Positions 324 to 14,257 of a stretch of DNA of 49,167 bases are shown here, one piece after another. How positions within the stretch are numbered: position 1 is the stretch's first letter; each line of letters starts with the position of its first letter. The DNA is from an uncultured Alphaproteobacteria bacterium (GTDB lineage Bacteria; Pseudomonadota; Alphaproteobacteria; Rickettsiales; UBA6187), in assembly GCA_937907045.1 (NCBI GenBank), contig CALCTU010000032.1, positions 1-49,167 on the forward strand, written 5' to 3'. The position numbers and the translations under genes were made by a program. The notes under the pieces were generated by a model, which searched no databases, was not told where the DNA came from, and was given only the letters and a program-made list of their open reading frames with translations.

Positions 324-797
324 TTATTTGTTTTTGTGCTCAACGATAAAGCGCTCAAAATAGCCTTTTTTCAAGGTTGCTGATGAGTAAAAAAAGTGAT
401 TAGCACCAACATCCCAGCTTGTATTAAAATAATCTTTTAAGTGATAGTCGGGATTTGGTTTGTTGGGGACTGTACCTAATTTTTCTTCTATAACAGTTAG
501 TATTTCACCAACCGCTTTCTTGTTTGTAAAGACAACCTGTTCGAGTTTATTTTCTTTAAAAGTTAATTTCATGAAAATGTTTCTAGAAAATTCAGGGCAA
601 AAATGGTAGGCCCTCTTTTCAAATGTACCTTCTTTTTGATGGAGAATATGCTCCACGTCATCCTCAAGCGAAATGCCAAAGGCTGGAAATGCTGCTTGAG
701 GGTTTTTTCCAAGTGGAAGGTTTTCCAGTTGGCATGCTAGTGCAGGAGCTGCAACCAAAGCAAGCCATGTTGTTATAAGTGATAAGTAGCGTAACAT
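324..797 (-). CDS. Small secreted Cys-containing protein, paralog P1 of a 4-member family of unknown function
   Basis: 157 aa with signal peptide ending ALA|C. It shares with the ORFs at 4987, 9239 and 9979 a Cys right after the predicted cleavage site, a second Cys ~45 aa later, a (L/I)xF..(N/D/Y)xL block and the KPNPDY motif. A G6 Shine-Dalgarno-like tract lies 9 nt upstream of the ATG. The ORF ends 50 nt upstream of PilY1-C. Confidence 0.7.
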   Translation of the reverse strand: MLRYLSLITTWLALVAAPALACQLENLPLGKNPQAAFPAFGISLEDDVEHILHQKEGTFEKRAYHFCPEFSRNIFMKLTFKENKLEQVVFTNKKAVGEILTVIEEKLGTVPNKPNPDYHLKDYFNTSWDVGANHFFYSSATLKKGYFERFIVEHKNK

Positions 798-826: not shown

Positions 827-1321
827 TTAGTTAAATTGCAGAGATACTACTGCCTCAATTGATCGTACAGAATTACGTGGACCGCTGGCCGATGATTCTA
901 CTTCAAAATATTCTTTTTGTCTCAAATTTGCAGTAGAATTATACTCACCGCCAACATTACCAATTTCGTTACCTATACCACCATCGGCAATAGCCTCTGA
1001 ACCAAGTGCAGTGATTGTGCAGTTATAGCTGTAGTCGTCAAGACCAGAAGCGGTGAGTGTTTCGCCGGATACAAGAAGGCTAGATAAGTCAGCAGGGTCA
1101 ATACTGGTGGCAGGTGAGAGTGGATCAACTTCTAATGTTGCTTTAAATTCATCAATACATGATTCTGTATAGTGAAAAACGGATGAATCGATTCCTTTGT
1201 ATGAGGCTGCCTCGTTCTCGCTGTTTGAGATGCGAATAAGACCAACACCAAGTAGGTTCATCACAATGAGCATGAGTAATGCTGTAAGCAATACATTTCC
1301 TTCTTGTCCACTTTTTCTCAT
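827..1321 (-). CDS. pilX: Type IV pilus minor pilin-like protein PilX
   Basis: 164 aa. The N-terminus MRKSGQEGNVLLTALLMLIVMNLLGVGLIRISNSENEAAS matches the PilX N-terminal pattern (QxG..L...L..L.....LG). It sits inside the minor-pilin/PilY1 gene string. Confidence 0.65.
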   Translation of the reverse strand: MRKSGQEGNVLLTALLMLIVMNLLGVGLIRISNSENEAASYKGIDSSVFHYTESCIDEFKATLEVDPLSPATSIDPADLSSLLVSGETLTASGLDDYSYNCTITALGSEAIADGGIGNEIGNVGGEYNSTANLRQKEYFEVESSASGPRNSVRSIEAVVSLQFN

Positions 1322-1431: not shown

Positions 1432-4400
1432 TTATTGGTGGTGCTCATACCATGATTCTACGCTAACTAGCGGATTTTCAATTGAACGTGGGGTTCCAAC
1501 GATAAGGTTACCCTGTTTTACATAATTACTTGGGAGTGTAATTGAGGAATCATCCGTGCTTATACCCATATATATTTTGCCTTTATAGACAACAACTTCG
1601 GTTGGAATACCCTTTCCTAATGAGGTTGTTTTGTGAATTTGGCCACATTCAAAATAATGTTCGGTAATACTTGCTGTACCTACATTACATATATCATTAC
1701 TTGATGAGGGGGTATAGCGTGGAACAATAATATCACCATTCCATATTGTTAATTTTGAAGTTACTTTTTCATTTGCGCCCAAATTTAGGTACCACCCTTG
1801 TGTAAAGTCCGAAGTCACACAGCTTGATGATTGTTCGTCGCTATTATAATGCATAAAGGGAGTGATATCTTGTAAATTTGATGGTGAATAAGCGGTGTCT
1901 AGTGGGGTATATCCAGGAAAATCAGTATCTTTAAGAGCTATGACCCGATTTTGCAAAGAAGTACGTTTAGCATTAAGATTCATAAGGTCTCCGCTACCAA
2001 AAAATTGATATAATGTACCAGAATGGTCAAGAGCAGAGGCTGTTTGATGGAATGTATATCTGCCATTATCATGTGTTGACTGACTTGAAAATACACGGGT
2101 TTTTTCGTATAATGTACCTGAATTTGTGAAATTAATTTTCCACAAGATACCCTCTAAATCTGTCATATATACCAATGCACCATATTGGTTGAAATTTGCC
2201 GTTGAGTCAGCAGTAATAACGGACATCGTAGAGGCAGATGCATTGGTAATGCCATTATTAGCAATAGTGTCGCCAAGTATAATATTTTGTAAGATGGCAC
2301 CATTATTTTCAAGGTCAATCGCATATATTCTTGCGCCAAATGATTGATTGATATTGGTGTGAAAACCACTGCCAATCAGTGCAACCCATTTATTTGTGTT
2401 TTCATCAATGGGTATGTTTACAATAACCGGTGTGGACCATGCTTGCCCCAATGATCGAAAATCCATGGATGCATCAAGAGTTATATCGTCTTGGTTTAGA
2501 TGGTATACTTGACGTTCGCCTTGATCATTCCAGTAGGCGATATGATTTATTTCTCTGGAGAAGGTAAATAAATGTTGTGGTGCAAGTGGATTGGTTACAT
2601 CTAGTGCATAGTATGAGTGTCCTCCTTGCCTCAGGCCGCCCATTAATATGGTTCGCCATTGTCCATCATAAAAAATATCTTTTACTGTTATAGGGCCATC
2701 AACACCAAAAATACTATTACTTGAAGCATTAATACTGCTGATGACTCCTGGAAAATTAGGAATAACACTTGGGGGGATGAATCCCCATAATTCTTGGCCT
2801 GTATCAAAGTCAAATGCATGTAACATACCACCGTTGGAACCAACATATACTACGGATCTTCGTTCTAGGCACGTCGGGGTGCCACATATTCCGCTTTGCT
2901 GAAAATGATGGTAGTTGTGACTAAATCGGTAAAATTCTTCGGAGTGGATATCTGCGCTTGAGTTAGCACCTGCTTTTGGTGGGCCTACTACTACTGCGCG
3001 GGAATGATAAATATCAGCTAATTTCCAGCGTTCAGAAGGCATCAATGTGGTACCTTGGCTGTCAATACCGGTAGGATATTCGTTATAGATATCTTTTCCG
3101 CGAATAAAACGAATAATATTATTTGCAGTATCATCCGATAATGTGCCGGTATGACGTTCACCGAGTAATCCTTTAAGAAGAGAAGTATTAGCGGTAGTAA
3201 AATTATTGAGTGTTGCATCTGCCATAAGTCCATTATGTGCAGTCCAGAGTTTGCGGTTATCTGCTGCAGTTGTATTGAGTAATTCACCTGCGTCCCATTG
3301 AAGATCCCCGAGCAACCCTTGTTCGTCAAGGGCGTATTTTTTCAAATGACCCTTCCATTGATGATTATCTTGATAGTGAAAAACAGATTGAATGAGATGG
3401 TCTGAGCCTTGTGTTGAAGGTACGATGGTAGGAGCGCTAAATGACAATGATGCATTGATTGCTTGCTGAACAAAGCTGTTTACGGCAGATACAATATTTG
3501 CTTCATTGGTAGCTAAAATGGGTGATACATCTTGGGTTCCGCCTGCTAACGATAATTGATTATAAAAATTAGTAGCAATGGGGTCGTCAATAAATGTCCC
3601 TAGTACGTATGTTTTAATATTGTGGGTGTTTAATAGATCAGTAGCAGTTGCTTCGGCTTCAGCTGCAACAACTTCGCGAGCTACATGTTGTCGTACCCAC
3701 CGTCCGTCTGTAATGACAATAATAATAGTTTGCTGACAGGCTGCATCTGGAACTAAAGGTGAGTTTGGGTCATCATTAAGGTAATCACTTGCTAGGTCCA
3801 TTGCTGCTGCCACGTCTGTTGCAAAATGTAAATCGATATCATTATTGAGAAAATCAATAATTTGATTGGCACCTGTTTCTCCTACTGGAACAGTTAGCCT
3901 TGCTGTGGCATCCCAGGTTATAAGGCCAAAATTAGCGCTAGAGGTTAATTCACTATTGGATACAACTGCACGTAAAGCATTTGCGGCTCTATCAATACGA
4001 CGAAGCGTAATGGGTATTACGGCGTTATCGCTTAAGTTGATGACTCTGTCGTTGCCTGCGTCTGCTACCCATATATTACCGTTATTGTCTTTTGAAAGGG
4101 CGTAGGGGTTGGTTAGGCCTACATTATATCGTGTCACATAACTGCCATTATTGCGATATTGGTATATTCTATCGGTATCGATACTTCCTACAAAAATATC
4201 ACCATTATCGGCAATCTCGATACCAATGGCTTTGTATGCTGTTCCATTGCGTTTGACGGTTGGAATGCTGTTTAGCAATAATCCTTGAGAATTGTATTTG
4301 CCGACGAAGCGATGTTGGTCATGTCGGTGAGTAAGGTAGATGTGGTCATTACTATCAATTGCAATATAGGTAGCTTGGGGAATATGATTGGGCCAAGAGT

Positions 4401-4938
4401 GAATAAAATTTAGGTTACTATCATAGACATCAACGCTTCTGTTATTGTTGATAACGTAGACGTTATTATTACTGTCAATATCAACGGCACGTATATTAAC
4501 AATATTGACGTATGTATCTAAATTTCCATCAGCAGTGAACCGTTGTAATCTTCCTCTATCTTTATCGGCAACATAAAGCCTGTCGTTACTGTCAAAAGCA
4601 ATATCAACAGCACGTGTCAGGCGGTCGCTTTCGTTAAAGTCTGTTTGATTTTCTCCACCAATATAATGGGTAAAAGTTCCGGATGCGTCATAGACATGGA
4701 TAACACCATCATTTTGAGCAATATAGGCGTGATCCTGGCTGTTAAACTCAACATTACGAGGATTGTCTGTGATTTGACCGGTAGTACGGTTCATGGAATA
4801 AGATGTATCCAGTAGCAACAATATGTTGGCTTTTGCAGTTGTGCCGTCAGAACCAATGGGTGCTGGCTTTGCAAACAATGCTATGGGTGCAAATATCAAC
4901 AAGCCAAGAATGATAAAACATATTAATTTCTGGAACAT
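1432..4938 (-). CDS. pilY1: PilY1-like type IV pilus tip adhesin, paralog B (signal peptide, vWA with NHL-propeller insertion, C-terminal PilY1/PilC beta-propeller)
   Basis: 1168 aa. MIDAS strand LLLLDTSYSM. Six NHL-like blades, e.g. VDIAFDSNDRLYVADKDRGRLQRF and GIEIADNGDIFVGSIDTDRIYQY. vWA continuation FGLITW...IIIVITDGRW. PilY1-type C-terminal motifs HQWKGHLKKY, RWKLADIYHSRAVVVGPP and VVYVGSNGGMLHAFDFDTGQELWGFIPPS. Confidence 0.85.
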   Translation of the reverse strand: MFQKLICFIILGLLIFAPIALFAKPAPIGSDGTTAKANILLLLDTSYSMNRTTGQITDNPRNVEFNSQDHAYIAQNDGVIHVYDASGTFTHYIGGENQTDFNESDRLTRAVDIAFDSNDRLYVADKDRGRLQRFTADGNLDTYVNIVNIRAVDIDSNNNVYVINNNRSVDVYDSNLNFIHSWPNHIPQATYIAIDSNDHIYLTHRHDQHRFVGKYNSQGLLLNSIPTVKRNGTAYKAIGIEIADNGDIFVGSIDTDRIYQYRNNGSYVTRYNVGLTNPYALSKDNNGNIWVADAGNDRVINLSDNAVIPITLRRIDRAANALRAVVSNSELTSSANFGLITWDATARLTVPVGETGANQIIDFLNNDIDLHFATDVAAAMDLASDYLNDDPNSPLVPDAACQQTIIIVITDGRWVRQHVAREVVAAEAEATATDLLNTHNIKTYVLGTFIDDPIATNFYNQLSLAGGTQDVSPILATNEANIVSAVNSFVQQAINASLSFSAPTIVPSTQGSDHLIQSVFHYQDNHQWKGHLKKYALDEQGLLGDLQWDAGELLNTTAADNRKLWTAHNGLMADATLNNFTTANTSLLKGLLGERHTGTLSDDTANNIIRFIRGKDIYNEYPTGIDSQGTTLMPSERWKLADIYHSRAVVVGPPKAGANSSADIHSEEFYRFSHNYHHFQQSGICGTPTCLERRSVVYVGSNGGMLHAFDFDTGQELWGFIPPSVIPNFPGVISSINASSNSIFGVDGPITVKDIFYDGQWRTILMGGLRQGGHSYYALDVTNPLAPQHLFTFSREINHIAYWNDQGERQVYHLNQDDITLDASMDFRSLGQAWSTPVIVNIPIDENTNKWVALIGSGFHTNINQSFGARIYAIDLENNGAILQNIILGDTIANNGITNASASTMSVITADSTANFNQYGALVYMTDLEGILWKINFTNSGTLYEKTRVFSSQSTHDNGRYTFHQTASALDHSGTLYQFFGSGDLMNLNAKRTSLQNRVIALKDTDFPGYTPLDTAYSPSNLQDITPFMHYNSDEQSSSCVTSDFTQGWYLNLGANEKVTSKLTIWNGDIIVPRYTPSSSNDICNVGTASITEHYFECGQIHKTTSLGKGIPTEVVVYKGKIYMGISTDDSSITLPSNYVKQGNLIVGTPRSIENPLVSVESWYEHHQ

Positions 4939-4986: not shown

Positions 4987-5457
4987 TTAATTTGGTTGAA
5001 TAATGAGTGTTTCTTTGGCAGTGCCTTTAATACGATCAGACACATACATGATGTCTAGTTGGTTGTTATGTTGCCAACGTGTTCTGTAATAATAACTAGC
5101 CGAGTGATCTTTATTTGGCCTTTTTGTTGTTTGGCCAAAATGTTTTTCAGCAATGCTTAGGATTATATCACTATGATGCTTGTAGTGAATTGTCATGCCA
5201 ATGAGGCTATGATCTTCGAATGTAAGGGAAATAGTGCTTCCAAAAGGAAACACATCACAATAACGATTGGCATGAAATTGGAGTTGTCCAGAGCCCTCCT
5301 GCAGAAGCGCTTCAACTTCTTCTTCGTCGCTATCAAGGCTAAAATAACTTACCACATATGCGGGTGGTTGTTGAAATGGTATGGTTACAAAATCACATGC
5401 ATATGCTGAAGTATAGAGGCATAGAAAGCTTAAAAATGTCACAAATTTAACTAACAC
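4987..5457 (-). CDS. Small secreted Cys-containing protein, paralog P2
   Basis: 156 aa with GTG start and signal peptide ...SAYA|C. Second Cys in NRYCD; RPNKDH motif equivalent to KPNPDY. The ORF ends 48 nt upstream of PilY1-B. The leader motif TGGGGGGAAAGGTG is shared with P4. Confidence 0.65.
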   Translation of the reverse strand: MLVKFVTFLSFLCLYTSAYACDFVTIPFQQPPAYVVSYFSLDSDEEEVEALLQEGSGQLQFHANRYCDVFPFGSTISLTFEDHSLIGMTIHYKHHSDIILSIAEKHFGQTTKRPNKDHSASYYYRTRWQHNNQLDIMYVSDRIKGTAKETLIIQPN

Positions 5458-5517: not shown

Positions 5518-5565
5518 TAAAAATACACAATCTATGGTTTATATTTGTGAGGTGGTGTGTAAGTG

Positions 5566-8500
5566 CTACGGATAAAGCTCTTGCCAGCTTTCCACGGTGA
5601 CGAGCACATTTACGGCAGCTGAAGGATCGCCAACAATAAGATTATCAATCTTCTCAAAGCCTGCAGGTGTGGTGGCTAATGGATCTGCAGAACTAATGCC
5701 TGCGTATAATTTTCCTTTATAAATTACAACCTCTGATAATACGCCAGGTCCAAGATTTGTTTGTCTTTCAACCGTACCACACGTAAAGTGATGTTCACTG
5801 ATGCTTGCGTTACCAACCTCACACGCACTTGATCCTGTGGTGGGTGTATATCGTGGCACAAACACATAGCTATTATTTACTGTTAGTGAAGCGGTTACTT
5901 TGTCTGTACCAATGTCAAAATACCAACCTTGAGCAGTTGAGTCACCTGTACATGAGGTCCCGGTTTCTGTTGCGCTGGTGACGTCATTGAGGTCGCTATC
6001 GGTAAGTGTAGAGCTGGTTGTAATTAATGGAAAGTTTGCGTCTTTGATTGCATGTACACGGTTACTAATAGCGCTGTCCGAATTATTCAGCTCAAGCATG
6101 TCTCCAGTACCATAGAATAGGCGTAATACCCCCGATGAGCTAAGTGTTGCCGCTGTCTGGAAGTACGGTACTCTGCCGTTAGTTTTTGTTGTATTTGTAT
6201 CATAGAGTTCGCCGTCGTTATATAACGTGCCCGAATCAGTGAAATTTATCTTATGTAATATACCGTCAAGGTCTGTAAAGTAAGCGATAACACCTGTATG
6301 TGTAAAGTTTGATGTGGAGTCTCCATTAATCACAGAGACAGTTTGAGGTACTGCATTATTGATGCTATTGCTCGATTTCGTTTCACCAAAGCTAATAGTC
6401 TCAATGATTTTACCACTTTCAATACTGCTTTCTAAGTCAACAACATAGAGGTTAGAACCATAGCTTCCGGAGCCTGAATTCATACCGCCGCCAATAAGTG
6501 CGACCCACCTTGTTCCGCCTAATTGGTCTGGAATAAGGCTAATAACAGGCTCTGACCAGGCCTCTCCAAGTCCAGAATAATCAAGGTTGGTAGGTACAGG
6601 AGTAGGGGCGCCGCTCAAAGTTGAGTAGGTGTAATGGACTCCACTAGCGTCCCAGTATGATATTTGGCCATGGGTTAAAGATTCATTGGCAAATGTAAAT
6701 AAGTGCTGAGGTGCGTCTGGGTTGGTTACATCTAACGCAAAATAGGACTTACCACCTTGTCTAAGGCCACCAATTAATACGGTACGCCATTGGCCTGAAT
6801 AGTAAATATCTTTGACAGTTAACAGGCCATCAACGCCATAAATTGATTCACTTTCGCCTGCGATAGATGATATTGCCTGATTAAAATTAGGAATAACACT
6901 TGGCGGAATGAATGCCCATTTTTCTTCGCCTGTTTCATAGTCAAAGGCATGTAACATACCCCCATTAGATCCAACATAGACAACGGTATCTCTTTGGGTG
7001 CATGCAACCCCGCAAGATGATCCTTCTTTAAATGACTGGTAGCCGTTTGCACTACGATAATATTGTTCGGTGTGGGTAGGCATATTTGAATCGATAACCG
7101 CATTAGGTGGTCCTACAACCACTGGTCTAGAATTATATATGTCAGCCAGTTTCCAGCGATCACCGGTGGCTAAGGTTGTTCCGGCTGAATCGATCCCTAA
7201 AGGATATTCGTTATAAACATCCTCTCCACGAATAAATTTTATTAGATTCTCAGAAGCAGTAGTATCCACAGTTGCTAGGCGTGAATGGAAATAGCTCACA
7301 TTATCGGCAATAAAGTTATTATAATCTACCGCATAGCTTACGCCACTATGTACGGTCCAGATTTTACGTTCACTAGAAGTAATGTCATTGAGTTGTGCTC
7401 CTGCTTCCCATTGTTGTGCTCCAATACTTCCAGTATTTGTGAGGGCGTATTTTCGGAGTTGTCCTCGCCATTGATGGTTTGGAATATAGTCAAACACTGA
7501 ATGTAAAATATAATCAGTGCCAGCTCCAGATGGGACAATGGTTGGTGAGCTAAACGCAATGGATTGGTTAATAGCATCTGCAATATACGTATTAATGGCA
7601 CTAATAATTTCAGAATTATTATCTGCAATGAGTGGAGATAATGGATCAGTACCACCAGCCACAGAAAGGGTTGTATAGTAGGGCATAGCTTCGGCTAATT
7701 GTGTCTCATCTAGGAAGGCAGCCAGTACATAGGTGGGGATATTATCATTATCATAAAGATCTTCTGCAATAGCATCGACGCTTACTTGTGTTGCTTCCCT
7801 ACAAGAAGTACTTGAGCAGCCACCCGATGCATTGGTCCACATGCCATCGGTGATTACAATATTGATCGTTTGCTGGCAGCTAATGGTACTGTCTATGGGA
7901 GTTGGTTTGCCCGAAATATTATTATCATAATAATTTCTGGCAAGTTCCATTGCTGAAGTGGGGTAGGTACCAAATTCAAGGTAGCTTGTTGGGTTTGCTA
8001 ATACCAAATCCATAAATGCACTGATTTCTGTTGCGCCAGTTGGTGAAATTTCAACGCGTAACTCTTCATCACCGTCAGCTGCCCAGGTAATAAGACCAAA
8101 ATTGACTTTGGTGTTTAATGCACTATCGGCGACCACTGCCTGAATTGCCTGTGCTGCTTTTTCAATACGCATTTGGGCAACTGGTGGAAGGAATTCGGTT
8201 GGATTGTCAATGTTAATAGCAAAGTCAGCAGGATTACCAGGATGTTCATCACTTACCCATATATCGCCATTCTGATCTTTAGATAATGTTTTGGGGGCAT
8301 CCAACGCAAGACTAGAATTTTTGGTAAGAAAGTTGCCGGCGCTATCATAGATATAAATAGAGTCTTTATTTTCACCAGCAATATAAATATTGCCATTATC
8401 AGCAATCTCAATACCTGTTGCAAGAAACTTACCTGAAGAAGGGTCTTGAAATGTAAATGACAGTAACTCATTACCATTTGTGTCAAATTTCCTGATATAT

Positions 8501-9189
8501 CGATCTCCACCAGATTTATCAGGTACGTATATATAGCCATCATCATCAACGGCTAGGTAATTAGTACTACTATGAAAACTTGTAGACCAGTCACGTAAGT
8601 GATTTAAGTCCGTATCATATACTGCGACATTGGTATCAAAAGATCCGTTACCATCTGCCTTCATAACATATAGTAGGTCATTTGGTTTATCGATATCAAT
8701 TGATTTAAGGCCGTTTATATTATTAATATAAGACATAGATCCAGTGGTAGTGTCTTCGTAAAGGCGTGATGCAGGAATCTTTTGGACCCGTTTTTTGTTT
8801 GATTTTGTATCTGCAATATATAAGTTGCCTTCTGCATCAAATGTCATATCGATAACTTCGCCAATTTTTGCACTATTTGCAAAGTCCCACTGATTTGTAC
8901 CGCCAACTTGTCCTACAAAATCACCCGATGGATCGTAAATGTAGATAGTGCCATCGTCCTGAGCAATGTATGAATATCCATCTGAGTCAAATTCTATATC
9001 ACGAATTTCTTCTACTTCTTGTCCTGTGATTCTGTTCATTGAGCGTGATACATCAAGTAACAACATTACATTGGCTTTTGTGCCGCCAGATCCTGACCCA
9101 AGAGGTGCTGTTTTGGTAGCCATGACTTGTGTGCTTAATAAGCATAGACAAATACATAGATACGTTGATAGTTTTTGTAATACATGCAT
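5566..9189 (-). CDS. pilY1: PilY1-like type IV pilus tip adhesin, paralog A (same architecture as paralog B)
   Basis: 1207 aa. MLLLDVSRSM; NHL-like blades (VIDMTFDAEGNLYIADTKS, GIEIADNGNIYIAGENKDSIYIY, LSKDQNGDIWVSDE); FGLITW...NIVITDGMW; HQWRGQLRKY; RWKLADIYNSRPVVVGPP; VVYVGSNGGMLHAFDYETGEEKWAFIPPS. SD TAAGGA lies upstream of the ATG at 9189. Confidence 0.85.
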   Translation of the reverse strand: MHVLQKLSTYLCICLCLLSTQVMATKTAPLGSGSGGTKANVMLLLDVSRSMNRITGQEVEEIRDIEFDSDGYSYIAQDDGTIYIYDPSGDFVGQVGGTNQWDFANSAKIGEVIDMTFDAEGNLYIADTKSNKKRVQKIPASRLYEDTTTGSMSYINNINGLKSIDIDKPNDLLYVMKADGNGSFDTNVAVYDTDLNHLRDWSTSFHSSTNYLAVDDDGYIYVPDKSGGDRYIRKFDTNGNELLSFTFQDPSSGKFLATGIEIADNGNIYIAGENKDSIYIYDSAGNFLTKNSSLALDAPKTLSKDQNGDIWVSDEHPGNPADFAINIDNPTEFLPPVAQMRIEKAAQAIQAVVADSALNTKVNFGLITWAADGDEELRVEISPTGATEISAFMDLVLANPTSYLEFGTYPTSAMELARNYYDNNISGKPTPIDSTISCQQTINIVITDGMWTNASGGCSSTSCREATQVSVDAIAEDLYDNDNIPTYVLAAFLDETQLAEAMPYYTTLSVAGGTDPLSPLIADNNSEIISAINTYIADAINQSIAFSSPTIVPSGAGTDYILHSVFDYIPNHQWRGQLRKYALTNTGSIGAQQWEAGAQLNDITSSERKIWTVHSGVSYAVDYNNFIADNVSYFHSRLATVDTTASENLIKFIRGEDVYNEYPLGIDSAGTTLATGDRWKLADIYNSRPVVVGPPNAVIDSNMPTHTEQYYRSANGYQSFKEGSSCGVACTQRDTVVYVGSNGGMLHAFDYETGEEKWAFIPPSVIPNFNQAISSIAGESESIYGVDGLLTVKDIYYSGQWRTVLIGGLRQGGKSYFALDVTNPDAPQHLFTFANESLTHGQISYWDASGVHYTYSTLSGAPTPVPTNLDYSGLGEAWSEPVISLIPDQLGGTRWVALIGGGMNSGSGSYGSNLYVVDLESSIESGKIIETISFGETKSSNSINNAVPQTVSVINGDSTSNFTHTGVIAYFTDLDGILHKINFTDSGTLYNDGELYDTNTTKTNGRVPYFQTAATLSSSGVLRLFYGTGDMLELNNSDSAISNRVHAIKDANFPLITTSSTLTDSDLNDVTSATETGTSCTGDSTAQGWYFDIGTDKVTASLTVNNSYVFVPRYTPTTGSSACEVGNASISEHHFTCGTVERQTNLGPGVLSEVVIYKGKLYAGISSADPLATTPAGFEKIDNLIVGDPSAAVNVLVTVESWQELYP

Positions 9190-9238
9190 GATCTTACTAG
9201 TCCTTACTATGGGTCTCTATTTTGATGTACTTACGTTA

Positions 9239-9739
9239 TTATCGTTTTACAAAGGGAGTAATCATTACAGATTCTTGTATATAGGCATGATGATTCCTGG
9301 TGAGATAGCGTATATCCACAGTGTCTTCTTGTGGCCATGTAGAAGAAAAACTGTTTCTAGATGGGTGGTCAGGATTGGGTTTGTTTTGAAGTTCCCCTAA
9401 ATGTTCCTCTACCTGCTTAAGAAGTGGTAATTTCTCATCTGGCTTGCTTTTGCGTAAGAATACTACAGAAGATAGTTTATATTCGGTAAAGTTAAGATGA
9501 ATGACTACCGATTCATCCATGTTTGAACAATATGGCTTGGCATCGATACGATGAACACCATTTCCTTGCTCATCCAGCTCTTTTAAAATTTCAGAAGAAT
9601 GGTCGTAGCTATTATAATGTAGTAATACAGAGTTAGCTTTGTCGCCAATTGGTGTGTAGGTTAGTTTACACGCATAGCTGTTGCATGCAAATAAAACTAG
9701 GCCCAAAAAAATACTGGTTAGTCCCTTTTTAGTAATCAT
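9239..9739 (-). CDS. Small secreted Cys-containing protein, paralog P3
   Basis: 166 aa with signal peptide ...NSYA|C, second Cys in KPYCS and a KPNPDH motif. The ORF ends 49 nt upstream of PilY1-A. A near-consensus promoter lies upstream. Confidence 0.7.
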   Translation of the reverse strand: MITKKGLTSIFLGLVLFACNSYACKLTYTPIGDKANSVLLHYNSYDHSSEILKELDEQGNGVHRIDAKPYCSNMDESVVIHLNFTEYKLSSVVFLRKSKPDEKLPLLKQVEEHLGELQNKPNPDHPSRNSFSSTWPQEDTVDIRYLTRNHHAYIQESVMITPFVKR

Positions 9740-9784
9740 AAAGGCCCCCTTTTGCCTTTTTGAGTGTACGTATACTCATGGTTG

Positions 9785-9813
9785 ATTATATAACATAAAA
9801 TGTGCAGTGTAAA
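9785..9813 (-). promoter_or_regulatory. Near-consensus sigma70-type promoter for P3/pilY1-A (TTTACA-N17-TATAAT)
   Basis: The minus strand reads TTTACActgcacattttatgttaTATAAT. The -10 is at 9785-9790 and the -35 at 9808-9813, ~45 nt upstream of the P3 ATG. Confidence 0.5.
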
Positions 9814-9928
9814 GTAAGTTATTCAACTTATAGTGTGTTTTTGTGAGTATAATTGTTACGACGTATTCGTTATTTCTATTTTCAATGCTTGTTAGTGTAG
9901 ATGTAAAATAGATGCTTTGGTTTTGTTG

Positions 9929-9972
9929 TCCTGATGGTATTTCGTAAACTCATGCACGAAATACCATCAGGA
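9929..9972. terminator. 16-bp perfect inverted repeat (hairpin) directly after the P4 stop codon
   Basis: Arms tcctgatggtatttcg (9929-9944) and cgaaataccatcagga (9957-9972), 12-nt loop. The T-run (gaattttta) is on the plus-strand side only, so for the minus-strand operon it is a U-tract-less stem. Confidence 0.5.
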
Positions 9973-9978
9973 GAATTT

Positions 9979-10467
9979 TTATTGTTGGCTAATGATAATA
10001 CGTTCATTGTCAAGATGGGCGTATCCTTGGACCATAAAGCGTACCAATAGGTTGCTGTCGGTAGCAACAACGGTGTTATAATATTTTCGTATCCGATAGT
10101 CCGGATGTGGTTTTTGTTTTAATTTACCAAAATTTTGTTCCATTGTTGTTACAAGGGTATCTTGTTTTTCTGTATTAATTTGATGTGAAATCATAATGCC
10201 TTTTAGTGCATTATTTTCAAATAACCCAGAAATAGAAGAGTTCTTTGGTAGATTAGTACATGCATTGTTTGCTGAAAATGTAATTGTTCCAGATCCAGAA
10301 ACAAGCTGTTTTTGTGCTTGTGGTGAAGTATGTTGTACGTCAAAATAATGTAATACATCATCGAGTGGACTACCAAAGGGCAGTTGGTTTAGATCACAAG
10401 CATATGATGATGAATGAAAGCTAATAAAAATGAAAATGCTAAGAATGCGTGTATAATAATGTCTCAC
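9979..10467 (-). CDS. Small secreted Cys-containing protein, paralog P4 (no PilY1 directly downstream)
   Basis: 162 aa with GTG start and signal peptide ...SSYA|C. C-DLNQLPFG resembles P1 C-QLENLPLG. Second Cys in NNACT; KPHPDY motif. It is followed by a 16-bp perfect hairpin. Confidence 0.65.
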   Translation of the reverse strand: MRHYYTRILSIFIFISFHSSSYACDLNQLPFGSPLDDVLHYFDVQHTSPQAQKQLVSGSGTITFSANNACTNLPKNSSISGLFENNALKGIMISHQINTEKQDTLVTTMEQNFGKLKQKPHPDYRIRKYYNTVVATDSNLLVRFMVQGYAHLDNERIIISQQ

Positions 10468-10521
10468 CGTTTAGTATCACTTTCCCCCCACAGCGCTCTT
10501 AACGGAATAAAAGCTTTGCCC

Positions 10522-10629: not shown

Positions 10630-11346
10630 TTAGTTGTTTCTTAGCTGAACGGTGGTATCGAAACTTTGTCTAAGATAATTGTCTGTGAATGTAAAGTTTG
10701 TGTTCCCAAAATGGTGCCAGGTGTTTCTGCTATAGGTTCCTTGGCTGCGCTTTAATGGGTTTGGACTACGAAGTACTAACGTGATATCAACAACGTTAAT
10801 AAGCTGTGGATTTGCAGGATCGTCAACACGTATCTGAAATGCATCAACATAGTCAGTTACTACGCCAGCCGTGCCAAGTGTATAGTCGGTTGCATCATCA
10901 GGGTTGGCAGTAGTGGTGGTATCTCTGCGAACCATTAATTGCCTGGTTGCTCCTGGCAAGGCAGTGCTGTCTGCAATGGAATAAAGTACACGATTGCGAG
11001 TGACTACGTCAGTGATAGGGTCTTTGGTGTCATAATAAATAGTGATTTCATCCCAATTACTTCCAGCTGTATCTGTATCAATAACAATGGGAGTGGAAAT
11101 ATCGCCTAGTATCGGATCAAAATTGGTATTATCAAGCAACGTATTGCCAGCCATCCGTATATCGCGAATGATAAAATTAATTGTTGGTAAGCCATTAATT
11201 TGTAAGAATGATTGGTTTTCCATGCGATCATGGTAGCGTGCAATAATAATATATGAGGCAAATGATCCCATCACTACAATTGATCCTACTGCTACAGCCA
11301 ACAGTAATTCCAACATTGTAAAACCATGCTGTTTTTGCCTACTCAT
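10630..11346 (-). CDS. pilW: Type IV pilus minor pilin PilW
   Basis: Prepilin leader and cleavage motif MSRQKQHG|FTMLELLLAVAVGSIVV, then the IRDIRMAGN block typical of PilW. I prefer the ATG at 11346 over the track start at 11376; it overlaps the pilV stop by 8 nt. Confidence 0.75.
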   Translation of the reverse strand: MSRQKQHGFTMLELLLAVAVGSIVVMGSFASYIIIARYHDRMENQSFLQINGLPTINFIIRDIRMAGNTLLDNTNFDPILGDISTPIVIDTDTAGSNWDEITIYYDTKDPITDVVTRNRVLYSIADSTALPGATRQLMVRRDTTTTANPDDATDYTLGTAGVVTDYVDAFQIRVDDPANPQLINVVDITLVLRSPNPLKRSQGTYSRNTWHHFGNTNFTFTDNYLRQSFDTTVQLRNN

Positions 11347-11899
11347 TATATATTCTCCTAAGGCTAACTTGTGCACGAGGTGGGGTTACCGGTGGATCAT
11401 TATATGCAGTTAATGTAACAATCACCACGGTACCGGCGGCGGGATTGGTAGCGTCCAGCGGTTGAGAAGTAATAGTTCTGACATTATTTGCAGAGGTGAC
11501 CATGTCACTTGATGTGGTACCAACGCCACTAGCGATGGTGACTTGGCCCTCGCCATCAAAATTATATTTCATGCGTTTACACCATTCGTACATACGTTGG
11601 TTGGGTGTAGGGTTGACTGGTGGCCCACTGCTCCAATCTCCTATTGCATTGGCGTCATCGCAACTAGTTAAGGACCCTCCAGTATAGGTACTAAGATTGG
11701 CTAGGTCGCTATCAATGATTTCATGAATTTGTTCGGCCTGTAGCTGTAGGATTTGACGCGCAGTTGCAAAGCGTGCTGAACGTTCAGAAACCATAACCAT
11801 AAGGTGGGTGCCAACAAAACCAATAGCAAGAATTACCGTTGCCACCAACGCTTCCAGTAGCGTAAATCCTGATTGTGATTGGTTTGAGGTGACTTTCAT
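11339..11899 (-). CDS. pilV: Type IV pilus minor pilin PilV
   Basis: 186 aa. MKVTSNQSQSG|FTLLEALVATVILAIGFVG matches the PilV signature GF(S/T)LxExLVA..(I/L)..G..G. Position is between fimT-like and pilW. Confidence 0.75.
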   Translation of the reverse strand: MKVTSNQSQSGFTLLEALVATVILAIGFVGTHLMVMVSERSARFATARQILQLQAEQIHEIIDSDLANLSTYTGGSLTSCDDANAIGDWSSGPPVNPTPNQRMYEWCKRMKYNFDGEGQVTIASGVGTTSSDMVTSANNVRTITSQPLDATNPAAGTVVIVTLTAYNDPPVTPPRAQVSLRRIYNE

Positions 11900-11910
11900 T
11901 GATGGTGCCC

Positions 11911-12429
11911 TTACTGTATTAAAATATAACCTGATGCCTGTGAAACCGAGATGGTGCGTGTTTGTGCTTCAGCAGGAGACCCTGATGCTGGTGCAAGGGT
12001 CAGCGTGGGAGTGGTACCATTTGATGTGCCATCACGATAAAAGCATAGGTCGTCATCAAAGGTAAGTTCGTATCCGGTTGGTATATTGATATCAATACTT
12101 GCCCGTGTAACATCATTAACGTTCGTTGCATTGCATGTTGTTGGTGGTGGTGTGCCGCTTTCTTGGAACAATGATACGGTCACAGTATTGGGTGTTGTAG
12201 ATGTAGCAACATTCACTCGGGTTGTAATAGCAGATGATGAAGCAACATGACGTGCATACTGAAATTGTTGTGATATTTGGTTCACGCTATTTTGGAGTGT
12301 GTTGCGCGAGCTAAACAAGCCGCTATCTTGAAAAGAGAACGTTGCCATGATGGCAATAATGGCAATGGTAATTAATAACTCAAGTAGAGTAAAGCCATTA
12401 GCGTGTTTATGGTTAGTGGTGTGCAACAT
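11911..12429 (-). CDS. fimT: GspH/FimT/FimU-family minor pilin
   Basis: Leader MLHTTNHKHANG|FTLLELLITIAIIAIMA followed by a helical segment (NTLQNSVNQISQQFQYARHVA) typical of FimT/FimU. The ATG at 12429 (or TTG at 12435) lies inside the 3' end of pilT. Confidence 0.7.
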   Translation of the reverse strand: MLHTTNHKHANGFTLLELLITIAIIAIMATFSFQDSGLFSSRNTLQNSVNQISQQFQYARHVASSSAITTRVNVATSTTPNTVTVSLFQESGTPPPTTCNATNVNDVTRASIDINIPTGYELTFDDDLCFYRDGTSNGTTPTLTLAPASGSPAEAQTRTISVSQASGYILIQ

Positions 12430-13423
12430 CCTCAAGCCTAATTATATTGTTTGCTATTAAGTAATTAACTGAATCTTCCATGGTCATCATGCCAAGTGAT
12501 TTTCCTGTTTGCATGGCGTGTTCTATTTGGAAGATTTTGTTCTCACGTATCAAGTTGGCAATGGCCACATTACATACCATTACCTCAAAAGCGGCAATTC
12601 GACCTGGTTGGTCAATACGTTTAATAAGTTGTTGTGTGACAACCAAGCGCAGGGATTGTGACAGTTGTGAACGGGCCTGGGCTTGTTGTTCGGGTGGGAA
12701 TACGTCTAAAATACGATTCACCGAGCTAGGTGCGCCATTGGTGTGTAGTGTACCAAATACTAAGTGACCAGTTTCAGCGGCAGTAAGTGCTAACGATACG
12801 GTTTCCAGATCACGCATCTCACCAAGTAATATGACGTCCGGGTCTTCACGTAAGCTTGCTTTTAGTGCACTTCCAAATGACATCGCATCTTTTCCTACTT
12901 CACGCTGTGAAACAATAGAAGTTTTACTTCGGTGAATAAATTCGATTGGATCTTCAATAGTGATAATATTTTCGTGGCGTTGCTCATTTACTCTATTTAC
13001 AATGGAAGCCAGGGTAGTAGATTTACCAGATCCTGTAGGACCGGTTACAAGTACAAGTCCATTTTTTTCATGTGTAATGTCCATGACTGCTTGTGGTAAT
13101 CCAAGCGCTTCAATGGGAGGTGCTTCGGTTTCGATTTTACGTAGTACCATTGCTGGGCCATTGAGTGTATTATATAAATTTGCCCTGAAACGAAAAAACT
13201 CAGTAGGAATGGCGAAGTCGAGATCTTTTTGGACGGCATATTGTTCTTTTTGGTCATCGTCTAAAATTTCTTGAATAAAATTCTCGACGTCTTGGCGTGT
13301 GATAAAGTCATTGGGCTGTATTTCGATAGAACCGTGCAGGCGCAGTGCAATCGGCTCGTCTGAATGAATATGAATATCCGACAAGTCGAAATTTTGAGTG
13401 TAACTGACAATTTTTTCGAGCAC
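12413..13423 (-). CDS. pilT: Type IV pilus retraction ATPase PilT
   Basis: 336 aa. Walker A GPTGSGKST, Walker B DVILLGEMRD, His box GHLVFGTLHT, and the PilT-type motif AIANLIRENK. GTG start with AGAGG SD. Confidence 0.9.
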   Translation of the reverse strand: MLEKIVSYTQNFDLSDIHIHSDEPIALRLHGSIEIQPNDFITRQDVENFIQEILDDDQKEQYAVQKDLDFAIPTEFFRFRANLYNTLNGPAMVLRKIETEAPPIEALGLPQAVMDITHEKNGLVLVTGPTGSGKSTTLASIVNRVNEQRHENIITIEDPIEFIHRSKTSIVSQREVGKDAMSFGSALKASLREDPDVILLGEMRDLETVSLALTAAETGHLVFGTLHTNGAPSSVNRILDVFPPEQQAQARSQLSQSLRLVVTQQLIKRIDQPGRIAAFEVMVCNVAIANLIRENKIFQIEHAMQTGKSLGMMTMEDSVNYLIANNIIRLEDVAHH

Positions 13424-13528
13424 GATCGTACCTCTTTTTTGTGATTTTGCACTTTAAATGCAAGCTATTGGCGTACATGCCAACCTTGTTAAAAGCGTAT
13501 CACAAAAAGATTAACGATTTATTAATGA

Positions 13529-14257
13529 TTAGTTATAGAGCCACATGGTAATTTCATAACCCCATAATAAGCAGATAACGCCTGCAATTGCTAACGCAGG
13601 CCCAAAAGGATAAGGCTCAGTATAATGTTTTCCTCTCAGAGGGTTGACAATAAGTGCCAATGCAATGCCTATAAATGATGATAGAATGATAATAAGCGGT
13701 AGTTGTACTGCTCCTGTCCAGGCACCTAATGCGCCAAGTAGTTTGAAGTCTCCCATGCCCATGCCTTCTTTTTTTCGAATCAATTTAAACAAACTATTTA
13801 CTGACCATAATATGCCAAAGCCTAAAATTGCTCCGAGCATTGCTTCGTTAAAGGTGGTAAAAACAATAAAATAATTAGCAAATAGTCCGATTGGGATGAG
13901 GGGTAGAATGAGTAAATCAGGTAAATACATGTATTTTAAGTCAATAGCAGACGCTATTAATAATAGGTGGCATAATAACAATGCTAGAACGGTTTCAAGG
14001 TCAATACCGCCACTACTATATAAGTAGCCGGCGCATATTAACCATATTACCATGATTGAAAAATAATAACGTGGTTGCCATAATGATACATAGTTCTTAT
14101 TTTCGTTAAAATGCTTATCAAAGTAACGAAATGACCATCCTGATAATATATCTAGAGTAAGTACAAGAATAATTGCGTATAATACGTAAGGTAGGTAATT
14201 GATGGTAAAATCTAGTGAAAACATAAACAATCCATAACTAATAATTGCACTTGGCAA
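13529..14257 (-). CDS. pilD: Prepilin peptidase (A24 family) PilD, with short Cys-less N-terminal region
   Basis: Multi-pass membrane protein carrying both aspartyl-protease motifs (ASAIDLKYMYLPD and GMGMGDFKLLGALGAW). The start is uncertain: TTG at 14257 or ATG at 14224. Confidence 0.8.
   Translation of the reverse strand: MPSAIISYGLFMFSLDFTINYLPYVLYAIILVLTLDILSGWSFRYFDKHFNENKNYVSLWQPRYYFSIMVIWLICAGYLYSSGGIDLETVLALLLCHLLLIASAIDLKYMYLPDLLILPLIPIGLFANYFIVFTTFNEAMLGAILGFGILWSVNSLFKLIRKKEGMGMGDFKLLGALGAWTGAVQLPLIIILSSFIGIALALIVNPLRGKHYTEPYPFGPALAIAGVICLLWGYEITMWLYN

What the first reader, a model, noticed from the sequence alone, without database searches (positions are those of the whole stretch)
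9239..10467. Four-member family of small secreted proteins with mature N-terminal Cys and KPNPD(Y/H) motif; no family recognised
P1 (324-797), P2 (4987-5457), P3 (9239-9739) and P4 (9979-10467) are 156-166 aa. All have a signal peptide ending A-x-A immediately followed by Cys (ALA|C, AYA|C, SYA|C, SYA|C). This looks like signal peptidase I cleavage rather than a lipobox. All have a second Cys 42-48 residues later, suggesting a disulfide. They share a hydrophobic (L/I)xF..(N/D/Y)xL strand, an E(E/K/Q)x(F/L)G block and (K/R)P(N/H)(P/K)D(Y/H). Overall identity is low, so the duplication is old or selection is diversifying. I cannot place them in any known pilus component (PilY2, PilP, PilE and so on). 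P3 and P4 are adjacent, and P4 is the only copy without its own PilY1.
Basis: seen in the sequence. Interest (0 to 1): 0.65.

Follow-up and report, generated by a model that had tools for sequence, protein, structure and literature searches.

The report
Unnamed small partner protein of PilY1
Four diverged copies of a small exported protein with no recognised family sit in a type IV pilus gene cluster, and in every related genome examined this protein is encoded directly in front of the pilus-tip adhesin gene pilY1, so it is probably an undescribed helper or partner of that adhesin.

Summary
P1-P4 (156-166 aa, minus strand) are true paralogs: pairwise BLASTP E-values are 1e-13 to 1e-23 at 24-30% identity. 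All four carry the A-x-A|Cys junction, a second Cys 45-47 residues later, and the E-x-x-(F/L)-G and (K/R)P(N/H)(P/K)D(Y/H) motifs.

Pfam, NCBIfam and PDB sequence searches find nothing. High-confidence AlphaFold models (pLDDT 91.5) find no PDB fold at TM above 0.37.

An exhaustive profile search found about 60 distant relatives of 160-250 aa. The named ones are called only "hypothetical protein". All share two invariant cysteines, and 0 of 65 have a canonical lipobox.

The key new result is gene context. In 12 of 12 foreign loci examined, the gene lies -4 to +110 bp upstream of a PilY1 gene, of the NHL-VWA-propeller type wherever its domains could be read. In the window a third PilY1 starts at base 272 and runs off the edge. 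The pairs are therefore P3-PilY1a, P2-PilY1b and P1-PilY1c, and P4 is the orphan.

Best reading: a protein exported by the Sec pathway, cut by signal peptidase I and held by a disulfide, dedicated to its cognate PilY1 as a periplasmic stabiliser or tip-complex subunit. The function is inferred, not shown.

The parts
9239..9739 (-). P3, a family member of 166 aa. It lies 49 bp upstream of PilY1a. The mature protein starts at Cys24.
   Evidence: AlphaFold model of the mature protein with a 65-sequence alignment: pLDDT 91.5, pTM 0.86.
9979..10467 (-). P4, a family member of 162 aa with a GTG start. It is the orphan copy: it follows PilW and is followed by a hairpin and a 239-bp spacer, not by a PilY1 gene. 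It has Val in place of the Trp that is conserved in 13 of 14 aligned members.
4987..5457 (-). P2, a family member of 156 aa with a GTG start. It lies 48 bp upstream of PilY1b.
324..797 (-). P1, a family member of 157 aa. It lies 29 bp after the PilX-like gene and 51 bp upstream of PilY1c.
   Evidence: AlphaFold model: pLDDT 82.7.
5566..9189 (-). PilY1a, 1207 aa: signal peptide, VWA/MIDAS motif, NHL-repeat region and a C-terminal PilY1 propeller.
   Evidence: Pfam PF05567 and NHL. 45% identical to PilY1b.
1432..4938 (-). PilY1b, 1168 aa, with VWA, NHL and the PilY1 propeller.
   Evidence: Pfam PF05567, PF13519, PF01436.
1..272 (-). The 5' end of a third PilY1 gene (PilY1c), cut off by the window edge. 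Its N-terminus (MKLKLAICVLF...SAPIGSGTGAGVKANILLLLDSSNSMD) matches the N-termini of PilY1a and PilY1b.
   Evidence: compared with the translations.
827..1321 (-). PilX-like minor pilin, 164 aa. Here it is displaced to after PilY1b and directly precedes P1.
   Evidence: Pfam PilX_N, E 8.8e-5 (22.8 bits, below the 25.5-bit gathering cut-off).
10630..12435 (-). Minor pilin genes FimT/U-like (11911-12435), PilV (11339-11899) and PilW (10630-11376).
   Evidence: N_methyl, PilW, TIGR02523 and GspH-like hits.
12413..14257 (-). PilT-like ATPase (12413-13423, 336 aa) and prepilin peptidase (13529-14257), at the head of the cluster.
   Evidence: Pfam T2SSE and Peptidase_A24. The same ATPase is linked to the minor pilins in L001, L004, L096, L097 and L098.
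9929..9972 (-). A perfect 16-bp inverted repeat (an 18-bp stem in the predicted RNA fold) starting 7 nt after the P4 stop codon. It separates P4 from the P3-PilY1a unit.
   Evidence: Fold energy -28.1 kcal/mol, z = -9.4. Unique in the window.
9785..9813 (-). Promoter-like site (TTTACA, 17-nt spacer, TATAAT; 11 of 12 matches) in the spacer upstream of P3. Similar sites precede P4 (10522-10550), P2 (5489-5517) and PilX-P1 (1391-1419).
   Evidence: These are consensus matches only. The total number of sites in the region (59) is not above the shuffled expectation (50.9 +/- 7.3).

Best explanation
P1-P4 belong to an undescribed family of small (about 14 kDa mature) proteins. They are exported by the Sec pathway, cut by signal peptidase I at A-x-A, and fold into a compact alpha/beta domain that is probably pinned by one disulfide between the N-terminal Cys and a Cys about 45 residues later.

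The gene is an obligate neighbour of one class of the type IV pilus tip protein PilY1, the class with an NHL-repeat region, a VWA domain and the C-terminal propeller. It sits directly upstream of that PilY1 and has been duplicated together with it. I infer that each P protein works on or with its cognate PilY1 in the periplasm. Most likely it is a dedicated stabiliser or escort that keeps PilY1 competent for loading onto the PilVWX minor-pilin priming complex, much as the unrelated periplasmic protein TfcP stabilises PilY1.1 in Myxococcus.

The three P-PilY1 cassettes would then give three alternative tip modules, each with its own helper.

Shown here: paralogy, export signal type, invariant cysteines, absence from known families, strict synteny and co-duplication.

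Inferred: the disulfide, physical interaction with PilY1, and the stabiliser role.

The confidence of 0.5 is for the specific periplasmic stabiliser/escort mode. The broader claim, that the protein is functionally dedicated to PilY1, I put at about 0.8.
For: 1. Paralogy: pairwise E 1e-13 to 1e-23.
2. Family: an exhaustive profile search of 1.84 billion representatives gave 70 hits at E<=1e-3. Five are long (527-2218 aa) multi-stretch matches; the two I inspected are repeat proteins and false positives. One is an 82-aa fragment of P1. The other 64 are 156-250 aa, three of them the window's own P2-P4.
3. Export: 0 of 65 have a canonical lipobox; 17 of 65 have a residue at -1 that is incompatible with lipidation; A-x-A lies 0-7 residues before the Cys.
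4. Only C, C and E are invariant over the 65 sequences.
5. Synteny: L001, L002, L003, L004, L006, L091/92, L093, L094/95, L096, L097, L098 and L016 all have the member immediately upstream of a PilY1-like gene, in three cases with overlapping or abutting stop and start codons. The pair also occurs away from any pilin genes (L003, L091), so the link is to PilY1 and not to the pilins.
6. Co-duplication in the window: P3-Y1a, P2-Y1b and P1-Y1c with spacers of 49, 48 and 51 bp.
7. Specificity: among 80 PilY1 loci from GTDB species genomes, only two carry a member within +/-8 kb: L006, whose PilY1 is among the closest to the window's (35% identity), and L016, with a more distant 1616-aa PilY1. Pseudomonas, Burkholderiales and deltaproteobacterial loci have none.
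8. Pairwise identities of P and of its partner PilY1 correlate (r = 0.70 over 36 pairs), with P far more diverged (24% versus 46% mean identity).
9. Precedent: TfcP is a periplasmic accessory protein encoded in a minor-pilin/PilY1 cluster that stabilises PilY1.1 (PMC8833165).
Against: - There is no direct evidence of interaction. No multimer prediction was available and there is no experiment.
- Adjacency could reflect only co-transcription.
- The identity correlation is confounded by shared ancestry, so its p-value means little.
- P4 is intact yet has no PilY1 next to it, so a strict one-to-one cis pairing is not obligatory.
- P evolves about twice as fast as PilY1. That would fit a surface-exposed component at least as well as a periplasmic chaperone.
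- No conserved catalytic or metal-binding motif points to a mechanism.
- The disulfide could not be checked in the model, because coordinates are not returned.
Confidence: 0.5

Rival explanations
1. P is a stoichiometric, non-pilin subunit of the priming/tip complex. It would be carried out of the cell with PilY1 and displayed at the pilus tip as an adaptor between PilX and PilY1 or as a co-adhesin, rather than staying in the periplasm.
For: The order PilX-P-PilY1 is conserved even where the operon is permuted (L096, L097). P diverges fast (mean 24% identity versus 46% for PilY1), as expected for an exposed component. It is a compact, disulfide-stabilised domain suited to the extracellular milieu.
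Against: P has no pilin-like N-terminal helix by which to enter the filament (secondary structure). The P-PilY1 pair also occurs without adjacent pilins (L003, L091). No structural similarity to any known tip component was found.
Confidence: 0.25
2. P is a soluble cargo secreted by the pilus machine, like TcpF of the Vibrio cholerae toxin-coregulated pilus or CofJ of ETEC CFA/III. The conserved extreme N-terminal motif C-(D/N)-L-x-x-L-P-F-G would serve as the docking signal.
For: P is a small Sec-exported protein encoded inside a pilus operon. The most conserved linear motif sits at the very N-terminus of the mature protein. I know from the literature, and did not test here, that the N-terminal segments of TcpF and CofJ are their secretion or docking signals.
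Against: The known examples belong to type IVb pili, which lack PilY1. The strict adjacency to PilY1 and the co-duplication with it are not needed for a cargo. No similarity to TcpF or CofJ appeared in the PDB sequence or fold searches.
Confidence: 0.1
3. P is a lipoprotein. The conserved Cys after the signal peptide would be the lipidated +1 residue, anchoring P to a membrane as with PilP or pilotins.
For: A Cys conserved directly after a signal peptide is the usual hallmark of lipoproteins. 17 of 65 members satisfy the loose PROSITE-style core pattern. BFVD fold hits include phage proteins labelled 'lipoprotein', but only at TM about 0.4.
Against: 0 of 65 members have the canonical lipobox. 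-3 is A or S and -2 is often F or Y. 17 of 65 have N/K/D/F/Y/T/E/H at -1. In several members a clear A-x-A site lies 2-7 residues upstream of the Cys. The second Cys is equally invariant, which fits a disulfide pair. No PilP hit was found.
Confidence: 0.05
4. P is a hitch-hiking gene with a function unrelated to PilY1, such as an immunity or inhibitor protein or a generic periplasmic binding protein that merely shares a transcript.
For: The weak Foldseek resemblance is to small periplasmic or secreted alpha/beta proteins of mixed function: Tsi3 immunity protein, DcrB, MTC28.
Against: All those matches have TM <= 0.37 and E >= 0.01. The 12-of-12 conserved position upstream of PilY1 persists across relatives only about 20% identical, in rearranged operons and in isolated pairs. 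That is hard to explain without a functional link.
Confidence: 0.05

Closest known systems
TfcP of Myxococcus xanthus, a non-canonical cytochrome c encoded in minor-pilin/PilY1 cluster_1 (Herfurth et al. 2022, PMC8833165)
   Same: Both are small, Sec-exported, non-pilin accessory proteins encoded in the minor-pilin/PilY1 cluster. TfcP is periplasmic and is needed for PilY1.1 stability, which makes it the functional precedent for a PilY1-dedicated helper.
   Different: TfcP is a haem-binding cytochrome c. The P family has no CxxCH motif, only two distant cysteines. It gives no cytochrome hit in Pfam and has a different predicted fold. The two are analogous at most, not homologous.
PilY2 of Pseudomonas aeruginosa and Acinetobacter (fimU-pilVWXY1Y2E operon)
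   Same: Both are small non-pilin ORFs next to pilY1 in the minor-pilin operon, with a poorly understood role. PilY2 is reported as required for piliation in P. aeruginosa (review PMC10191384).
   Different: pilY2 lies downstream of pilY1, whereas P lies upstream, between pilX and pilY1. A profile scan of five Pseudomonas PilY1 loci (+/-8 kb) found no P-family member. No PilY2 reference sequence was available for a direct comparison.
Type IV minor pilins (PilX / PilW / GspK-like)
   Same: P4 occupies the slot after PilW where PilX normally sits. The sizes are similar.
   Different: P has no prepilin (class III) leader, no N_methyl motif and no long hydrophobic N-terminal helix. A separate PilX is present in the window and in the foreign loci.
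Mog1/PsbP/DcrB-like alpha-beta sandwich proteins (DcrB 6e8a, MTC28 4ol4, Mog1 1jhs, LpqN 6e5d)
   Same: These recur among the best Foldseek matches. Most are secreted, periplasmic or lumenal proteins; Mog1 itself is a eukaryotic Ran-binding protein.
   Different: TM-scores are only 0.24-0.37, rmsd 7-15 A and E >= 0.01. That is below any threshold for a shared fold.

Membership tests
Bacterial lipoproteins (signal peptidase II substrates) | Lipobox [LVI][ASTVI][GAS]-C at the end of the signal peptide, with a small residue (G/A/S) at -1 | tested here: not met
   0 of 65 members match. The window proteins have ALA-C, AYA-C, SYA-C and SYA-C. 17 of 65 have N/K/D/F/Y/T/E/H at -1.
Type IV pilins / minor pilins | Class III signal peptide with G|(F/M)xxxE and the N-terminal methylation motif (PF07963 / TIGR02532), followed by a long hydrophobic alpha-1 helix | tested here: not met
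   P1-P4 give no PF07963 or TIGR02532 hit at E<=1, whereas the neighbouring FimT, PilV and PilW do. The predicted mature structure starts with a coil and short helices.
PilP (inner-membrane lipoprotein of the PilMNOPQ alignment complex) | Match to PF04351 and a lipobox; encoded in pilMNOPQ | tested here: not met
   No PF04351 hit. No lipobox. L004 has a separate PilP gene in a pilN-pilP cluster.
PilY2 | Small ORF immediately downstream of pilY1 and upstream of pilE | tested here: not met
   The P genes lie immediately upstream of pilY1 in the window and in 12 of 12 foreign loci.
PilY2 | Sequence similarity to P. aeruginosa PilY2 (PA4555) | not tested
   No reference PilY2 sequence was reachable with these tools. 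The Pseudomonas loci fetched (L034, L039) do not show an obvious pilY2, and none of the five matches the family profile.
TfcP-type cytochrome c | CxxCH haem-binding motif and a cytochrome c fold | tested here: not met
   The mature P1-P4 proteins contain only two cysteines, 45-47 residues apart, and no CxxCH. No cytochrome family appears in Pfam.
Mog1/PsbP/DcrB-like fold | Structural superposition with TM >= 0.5 to a member | tested here: not met
   Best TM is 0.37 (Mog1 1jhs), then 0.34 (DcrB 6e8a) and 0.30 (MTC28), using a model of pLDDT 91.5.
The P family itself (proposed definition) | 156-250 aa; signal peptidase I signal; Cys at or within 7 residues of the mature N-terminus followed by (D/N)-L-x-x-(L/I)-P-F-G; a second Cys 39-48 residues later; F-G after the central helix; a conserved Glu in the last strand; gene directly upstream of a PilY1 gene (NHL-VWA type where domains are known) | tested here: met
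   P1-P3 meet all of these. P4 meets all except the adjacent PilY1, and it lacks the Trp that is conserved in 13 of 14 aligned members.

The most novel reading that the evidence does not exclude
The P family is a previously unrecognised, structurally novel fifth component of the type IVa pilus priming/tip module in a group of uncultured aquatic bacteria. Some of these are labelled 'Rickettsiales bacterium' or Pelagibacteraceae. In this reading each PilY1 adhesin of the NHL-VWA class needs its own cognate P protein to be loaded onto the minor pilins or to bind its target. The three P-PilY1 cassettes, each possibly with its own promoter, would then form a switchable set of alternative pilus tips.
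Probability: 0.3. Interest if true: 0.7.

Novelty: new variant of a known kind. Interest (0 to 1): 0.55.

Why it matters
PilY1/PilC proteins and the four core minor pilins are regarded as the complete priming and tip complex of type IVa pili. Accessory factors that act on PilY1 are almost unknown; TfcP is the one characterised case.

A protein family that is always encoded in front of one PilY1 class, that duplicates with it, and that has no detectable sequence or fold relatives would add a new, testable component to the pilus tip module.

It would also give a handle on how bacteria with several PilY1 paralogs keep the alternative tips apart. The lineages that carry the family are abundant but uncultured aquatic bacteria whose surface-attachment or host-attachment biology is essentially unstudied.

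Tried and rejected
- Word-indexed homolog search with the four-paralog profile found only the window's own proteins. The exhaustive HMM search was needed.
- The search for related loci with the family alignments A2 and A3 failed, because no stretch of 7-10 columns is conserved enough. I used a PilY1 alignment as the anchor instead.
- Five long hits in the profile search (P0028, P0030, P0040, P0055, P0067) match in many short stretches. The two I inspected (P0028, P0067) are cadherin-like repeat proteins matched through a repeated 'GNPDHE' motif. I rejected all five as false positives.
- Foldseek against PDB with both models, and against BFVD, gave no match with TM >= 0.5. The Tsi3 hit (prob 0.97, TM 0.34) was not reproduced with the better model.
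- A population-level dN/dS was attempted on six metagenome contigs that carry P3 and P4. They are 99.96-100% identical to the window, so there is no signal. Between paralogs (about 25% identity) synonymous sites are saturated, so dN/dS was not attempted.
- The organism could not be identified. Cluster look-ups of RecA, AlaS, ParC and GshB returned no names, and a literature check on marine Rickettsiales and Comchoanobacter pili was uninformative.
- The Cys-Cys distance in the AlphaFold model could not be measured, because coordinates are not returned.
Full report
**1. What is in the window**

Bases 1-14257 of the minus strand encode a type IV pilus cluster. In order of transcription it contains:
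- prepilin peptidase (13529-14257)
- a 336-aa PilT-like ATPase (12413-13423)
- FimT/U-like (11911-12435), PilV (11339-11899) and PilW (10630-11376)
- P4 (9979-10467)
- P3 (9239-9739) and PilY1a (5566-9189)
- P2 (4987-5457) and PilY1b (1432-4938)
- a PilX_N-like pilin (827-1321)
- P1 (324-797)

These assignments rest. Both complete PilY1 proteins have the C-terminal PilY1 propeller and NHL repeats; PilY1b also has a VWA hit.

Reading the first 330 bases on the minus strand shows a further ORF starting at base 272. Its product, MKLKLAICVLF...SAPIGSGTGAGVKANILLLLDSSNSMD..., matches the N-termini of PilY1a and PilY1b and runs off the window. There are therefore three PilY1 genes, and each is preceded by a P gene at a spacer of 49, 48 or 51 bp. 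P4 follows PilW. It is followed by a strong hairpin (-28.1 kcal/mol, z = -9.4) and a 239-bp spacer.

**2. Check of the observation**

The four ORFs exist at the stated coordinates. All six pairwise BLASTP comparisons are significant: E 2e-13 to 1e-23, 24-30% identity over nearly the full length.

- junctions ALA|C, AYA|C, SYA|C and SYA|C
- a second Cys 45-47 residues later
- E-x-x-(F/L)-G
- (K/R)P(N/H)(P/K)D(Y/H)

Pfam and NCBIfam give nothing at E<=1 for any of the four, while the neighbouring pilins and PilY1 are recognised.

**3. The family beyond the window**

A word-indexed search found only the window's own proteins. An exhaustive profile search of 1.84 billion cluster representatives found 70 proteins at E<=1e-3 and 17 at E<=1e-10.
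- Five are long (527-2218 aa) proteins matched in many short stretches. The two inspected are cadherin-like repeat proteins hit through a repeated GNPDHE motif, so I rejected all five as false positives.
- One is an 82-aa fragment of P1.
- The other 64 are 156-250 aa, three of them the window's own P2-P4. They share the same layout: a signal peptide, Cys-(D/N)-L-x-x-(L/I)-P-F-G, a second Cys, F-G after a helix, then W, Y-S, and E-x-L-x-I-x-S.

Over 65 aligned members only the two cysteines and one glutamate are invariant. None of the 65 hits any Pfam family convincingly, and a profile search of PDB sequences finds nothing at E<=1. Where public sources name members, the name is 'hypothetical protein [Rickettsiales bacterium]' or plain 'hypothetical protein'.

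**4. Export and the cysteines**

None of the 65 members has a canonical lipobox. Position -3 is mostly A or S, and -2 is often F or Y. In 17 members the residue before the Cys is N, K, D, F, Y, T, E or H, because a clear A-x-A site lies 1-7 residues upstream (AWA|MGNNC, SYA|DDEKC, ANA|SKAGKHTC, ALA|SADC).

The Cys then belongs to the mature domain, and the equally invariant second Cys 39-48 residues later makes a disulfide the natural inference. I could not verify the bond geometrically.

**5. Structure**

AlphaFold with only the four paralogs gave pLDDT 82.7 for P1. With the 65-sequence alignment, mature P3 gave pLDDT 91.5 and pTM 0.86. The model has two short N-terminal helices, three strands, a helix, and three more strands.

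Foldseek against the PDB found nothing with E<1e-3. The best TM-scores were 0.27-0.37, to YdcD, MTC28, DcrB and Mog1. Against BFVD the best hit was an uncharacterised phage protein at E 5.8e-4 and TM 0.40. The fold therefore has no confident solved relative. No library of cellular predicted structures was available.

**6. Genomic context of relatives, the decisive result**

I looked up or found twelve independent foreign loci (two of them seen on a second contig):

| Locus | Source or label | Gene order or note |
|---|---|---|
| L001 | GCA_030429625.1 | PilT-like, FimT, PilV, PilW, PilX_N, P, PilY1 |
| L002 | Logan contig DRR673957 | P, then PilY1 |
| L003 | Logan contig SRR12659327 | P-PilY1 pair without pilins |
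| L004 | GCA_964476705.1 | syntenic with the window from Band_7/ParA to PilY1 |
| L006 | GTDB MAG | P, then PilY1 |
| L091 / L092 | Logan contigs SRR32105529 / SRR32105528 | isolated P-PilY1 pair |
| L093 | ENA metagenome scaffold | P, then PilY1 |
| L094 / L095 | Tara Oceans metagenome scaffolds | after PilX_N |
| L096 and L097 | NCBI assemblies GCA_020446765.1, GCA_048498495.1 | permuted: pilin, PilX, P, PilY1, PilT-like, FimT, PilV, PilW |
| L098 | JGI metagenome 3300042904 | P, then PilY1 |
| L016 | SAG labelled Pelagibacteraceae | divergent member, E 3e-5 among 5339 ORFs, before a 1616-aa PilY1 |

In every case a PilY1-like ORF starts from 4 bp of overlap to about 110 bp downstream of the P gene. 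tblastn confirmed this for the loci held at the time. For L096-L098 and L016 it rests on Pfam domain calls and on the PilY1 anchor scan.

The converse also holds. Among 80 PilY1 loci drawn from GTDB species genomes, only L006 and L016 contain a family member within +/-8 kb. Pseudomonas, Burkholderiales, deltaproteobacterial and other PilY1 loci have none.

The unit that is conserved is P-PilY1. It is usually preceded by PilX, but it also stands alone.

**7. Evolution of the pair**

For nine P/PilY1 pairs, the mean pairwise identity is 24% for P and 46% for PilY1. The two sets of identities correlate (r = 0.70 over 36 comparisons). That fits joint inheritance, but it is confounded by phylogeny.

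PilY1a and PilY1b are each other's closest relatives (45% identity against 37-42% to outsiders). The P paralogs are no closer to each other (19-27%) than to foreign members. Either the duplication is old or P diverges quickly after duplication. P4 retains both cysteines, the glycines and the glutamate, but it has lost the Trp conserved in 13 of 14 aligned members.

**8. Expression signals**

Each P gene is preceded by a G-rich Shine-Dalgarno-like run (GGGGGGA or GGGGG). Four of the best minus-strand promoter-like sites fall in the four spacers upstream of P4, P3, P2 and PilX-P1. These are consensus matches only, and the total count in the region is not above the shuffled expectation. I treat independent transcription of the cassettes as a suggestion.

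The segment from PilW to PilY1a is 99.96-100% identical in six contigs from independent ocean metagenomes, including Tara Oceans samples. The organism is therefore a real marine bacterium, but polymorphism-based selection tests are impossible.

**9. Interpretation**

The family consists of exported, non-pilin, non-lipoprotein small domains tied to one class of PilY1. I commit to a PilY1-dedicated partner acting in the periplasm, a stabiliser or escort for loading PilY1 onto the minor-pilin priming complex. The functional precedent is TfcP in Myxococcus xanthus, a periplasmic accessory protein encoded in a minor-pilin/PilY1 cluster that stabilises PilY1.1 (PMC8833165).

I put about 0.8 on 'functionally dedicated to PilY1' and about 0.45-0.5 on the specific stabiliser/escort mode. 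The main rival is a tip-complex subunit or co-adhesin (0.25), which the fast divergence favours. A TcpF/CofJ-like secreted cargo (0.1), a lipoprotein (0.05) and an unrelated hitch-hiker (0.05) are less likely.

**10. Comparison with known families**

- **Not a pilin.** It has no class III leader or N_methyl motif.
- **Not PilP.** There is no PF04351 hit and no lipobox.
- **Not a TfcP-type cytochrome.** It has no CxxCH motif.
- **Not PilY2 by gene position.** It lies upstream of pilY1, not downstream. Similarity to PilY2 by sequence could not be tested.
- **No membership in the Mog1/PsbP/DcrB fold class.** The resemblance is weak (TM <= 0.37).

**11. Verdict**

This is an unannotated protein family with a high-confidence predicted fold that has no solved relative. 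It is an obligate upstream neighbour of NHL-VWA-type PilY1 and is triplicated with it here.

It is a new accessory component of a known machine, not a new kind of system. Function remains inferred. Interest 0.55.

Noticed in passing
window 1-272 (minus strand): A third PilY1 paralog (PilY1c) begins here and runs off the window edge. The cluster therefore has at least three PilY1 genes, not two.
   Followed up: yes
window 12413-13423 (minus strand); also L001 4763-5773, L004 4702-5712, L096 4903-5952, L097 5181-6185, L098 2743-3774: A short (334-349 aa) PilT-like T2SSE ATPase is consistently encoded directly in front of the FimT-PilV-PilW minor-pilin genes in this lineage. That is an unusual, conserved linkage between a retraction-type ATPase and the minor-pilin operon.
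   Followed up: partly
window 5566-9189 and 1432-4938; partners in L001, L003, L004, L091, L096-L098: These PilY1 proteins form a distinct class. A DxSxS MIDAS-like motif sits right after the signal peptide, then an NHL/SGL-type repeat region of about 270 residues, then the rest of the VWA domain, then the PilY1 propeller. The VWA domain thus appears to be split by an inserted propeller.
   Followed up: partly
window 827-1321 relative to 10630-11376: PilX is displaced. In relatives the order is PilW-PilX-P-PilY1. Here P4, P3-PilY1a and P2-PilY1b lie between PilW and PilX, as if two and a half cassettes had been inserted or duplicated upstream of the original PilX-P1-PilY1c unit.
   Followed up: partly
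window 9929-9972: A perfect 16-bp inverted repeat (18-bp stem in the predicted RNA fold; -28.1 kcal/mol, z = -9.4) starts 7 nt after the P4 stop codon. It has no U-tract on the coding strand but a T-run on the opposite strand, and it is unique in the window. It could be a terminator or an mRNA-stabilising element separating P4 from P3-PilY1a.
   Followed up: partly
window 9785-9813, 10522-10550, 5489-5517, 1391-1419 (minus strand): High-scoring sigma-70-like sites sit in each of the four spacers upstream of P4, P3, P2 and PilX-P1. This hints that each cassette can be transcribed on its own. The overall count in the region is not above the shuffled expectation.
   Followed up: no
P0014, P0024, P0025, P0036, P0045, P0047, P0054, P0056, P0057 (family members of 227-249 aa): A subgroup of the family carries a Lys/Ser-rich C-terminal extension of about 70 residues. 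It ends in a conserved motif of the type Y-D-(P/A)-(N/D)-A-L-x-x-L-K-x-x-Y-(D/E)...(E/D)-x-W-K, mostly followed by K-G-R at the C-terminus. Most other foreign members have a shorter charged tail after S-K-K-H-x-x-L-F. The window's four copies lack any tail.
   Followed up: no
window 26086-34854 (plus strand): A giant 2922-aa protein with at least 14 RTX calcium-binding nonapeptide repeat matches, probably a large secreted adhesin or toxin.
   Followed up: no
window 36831-39074 and 39077-41308 (minus strand): Two tandem paralogs of about 745 aa, each combining TPR repeats with a family-41 (OGT-like) glycosyltransferase domain. They lie next to TRAP transporter genes (DctQ/DctM).
   Followed up: no
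window about 6240-11450, compared with L085-L090: Contigs from six independent marine metagenome assemblies, including Tara Oceans samples, are 99.96-100% identical to the window over 2.5-4 kb. RecA and ParC have no relative within 90% identity in the 15-billion-protein collection. This points to a widespread, nearly clonal, otherwise isolated lineage.
   Followed up: partly
L003 1-1061 and L004 12452-13024: Relatives that carry the family encode eukaryote-like proteins (ankyrin-repeat proteins; an EF-hand-glutaminase-ankyrin fusion). NCBI labels some of these MAGs 'Rickettsiales bacterium'. This hints at a host-associated lifestyle for the carrier lineages.
   Followed up: no
P0028, P0067 (hits): Cadherin-like repeat proteins score against the family profile through a repeated 'GNPDHE(T/A)K-SY-F' segment that resembles the family's KPNPDH...F motif. 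I judged this a repeat-driven false positive.
   Followed up: yes
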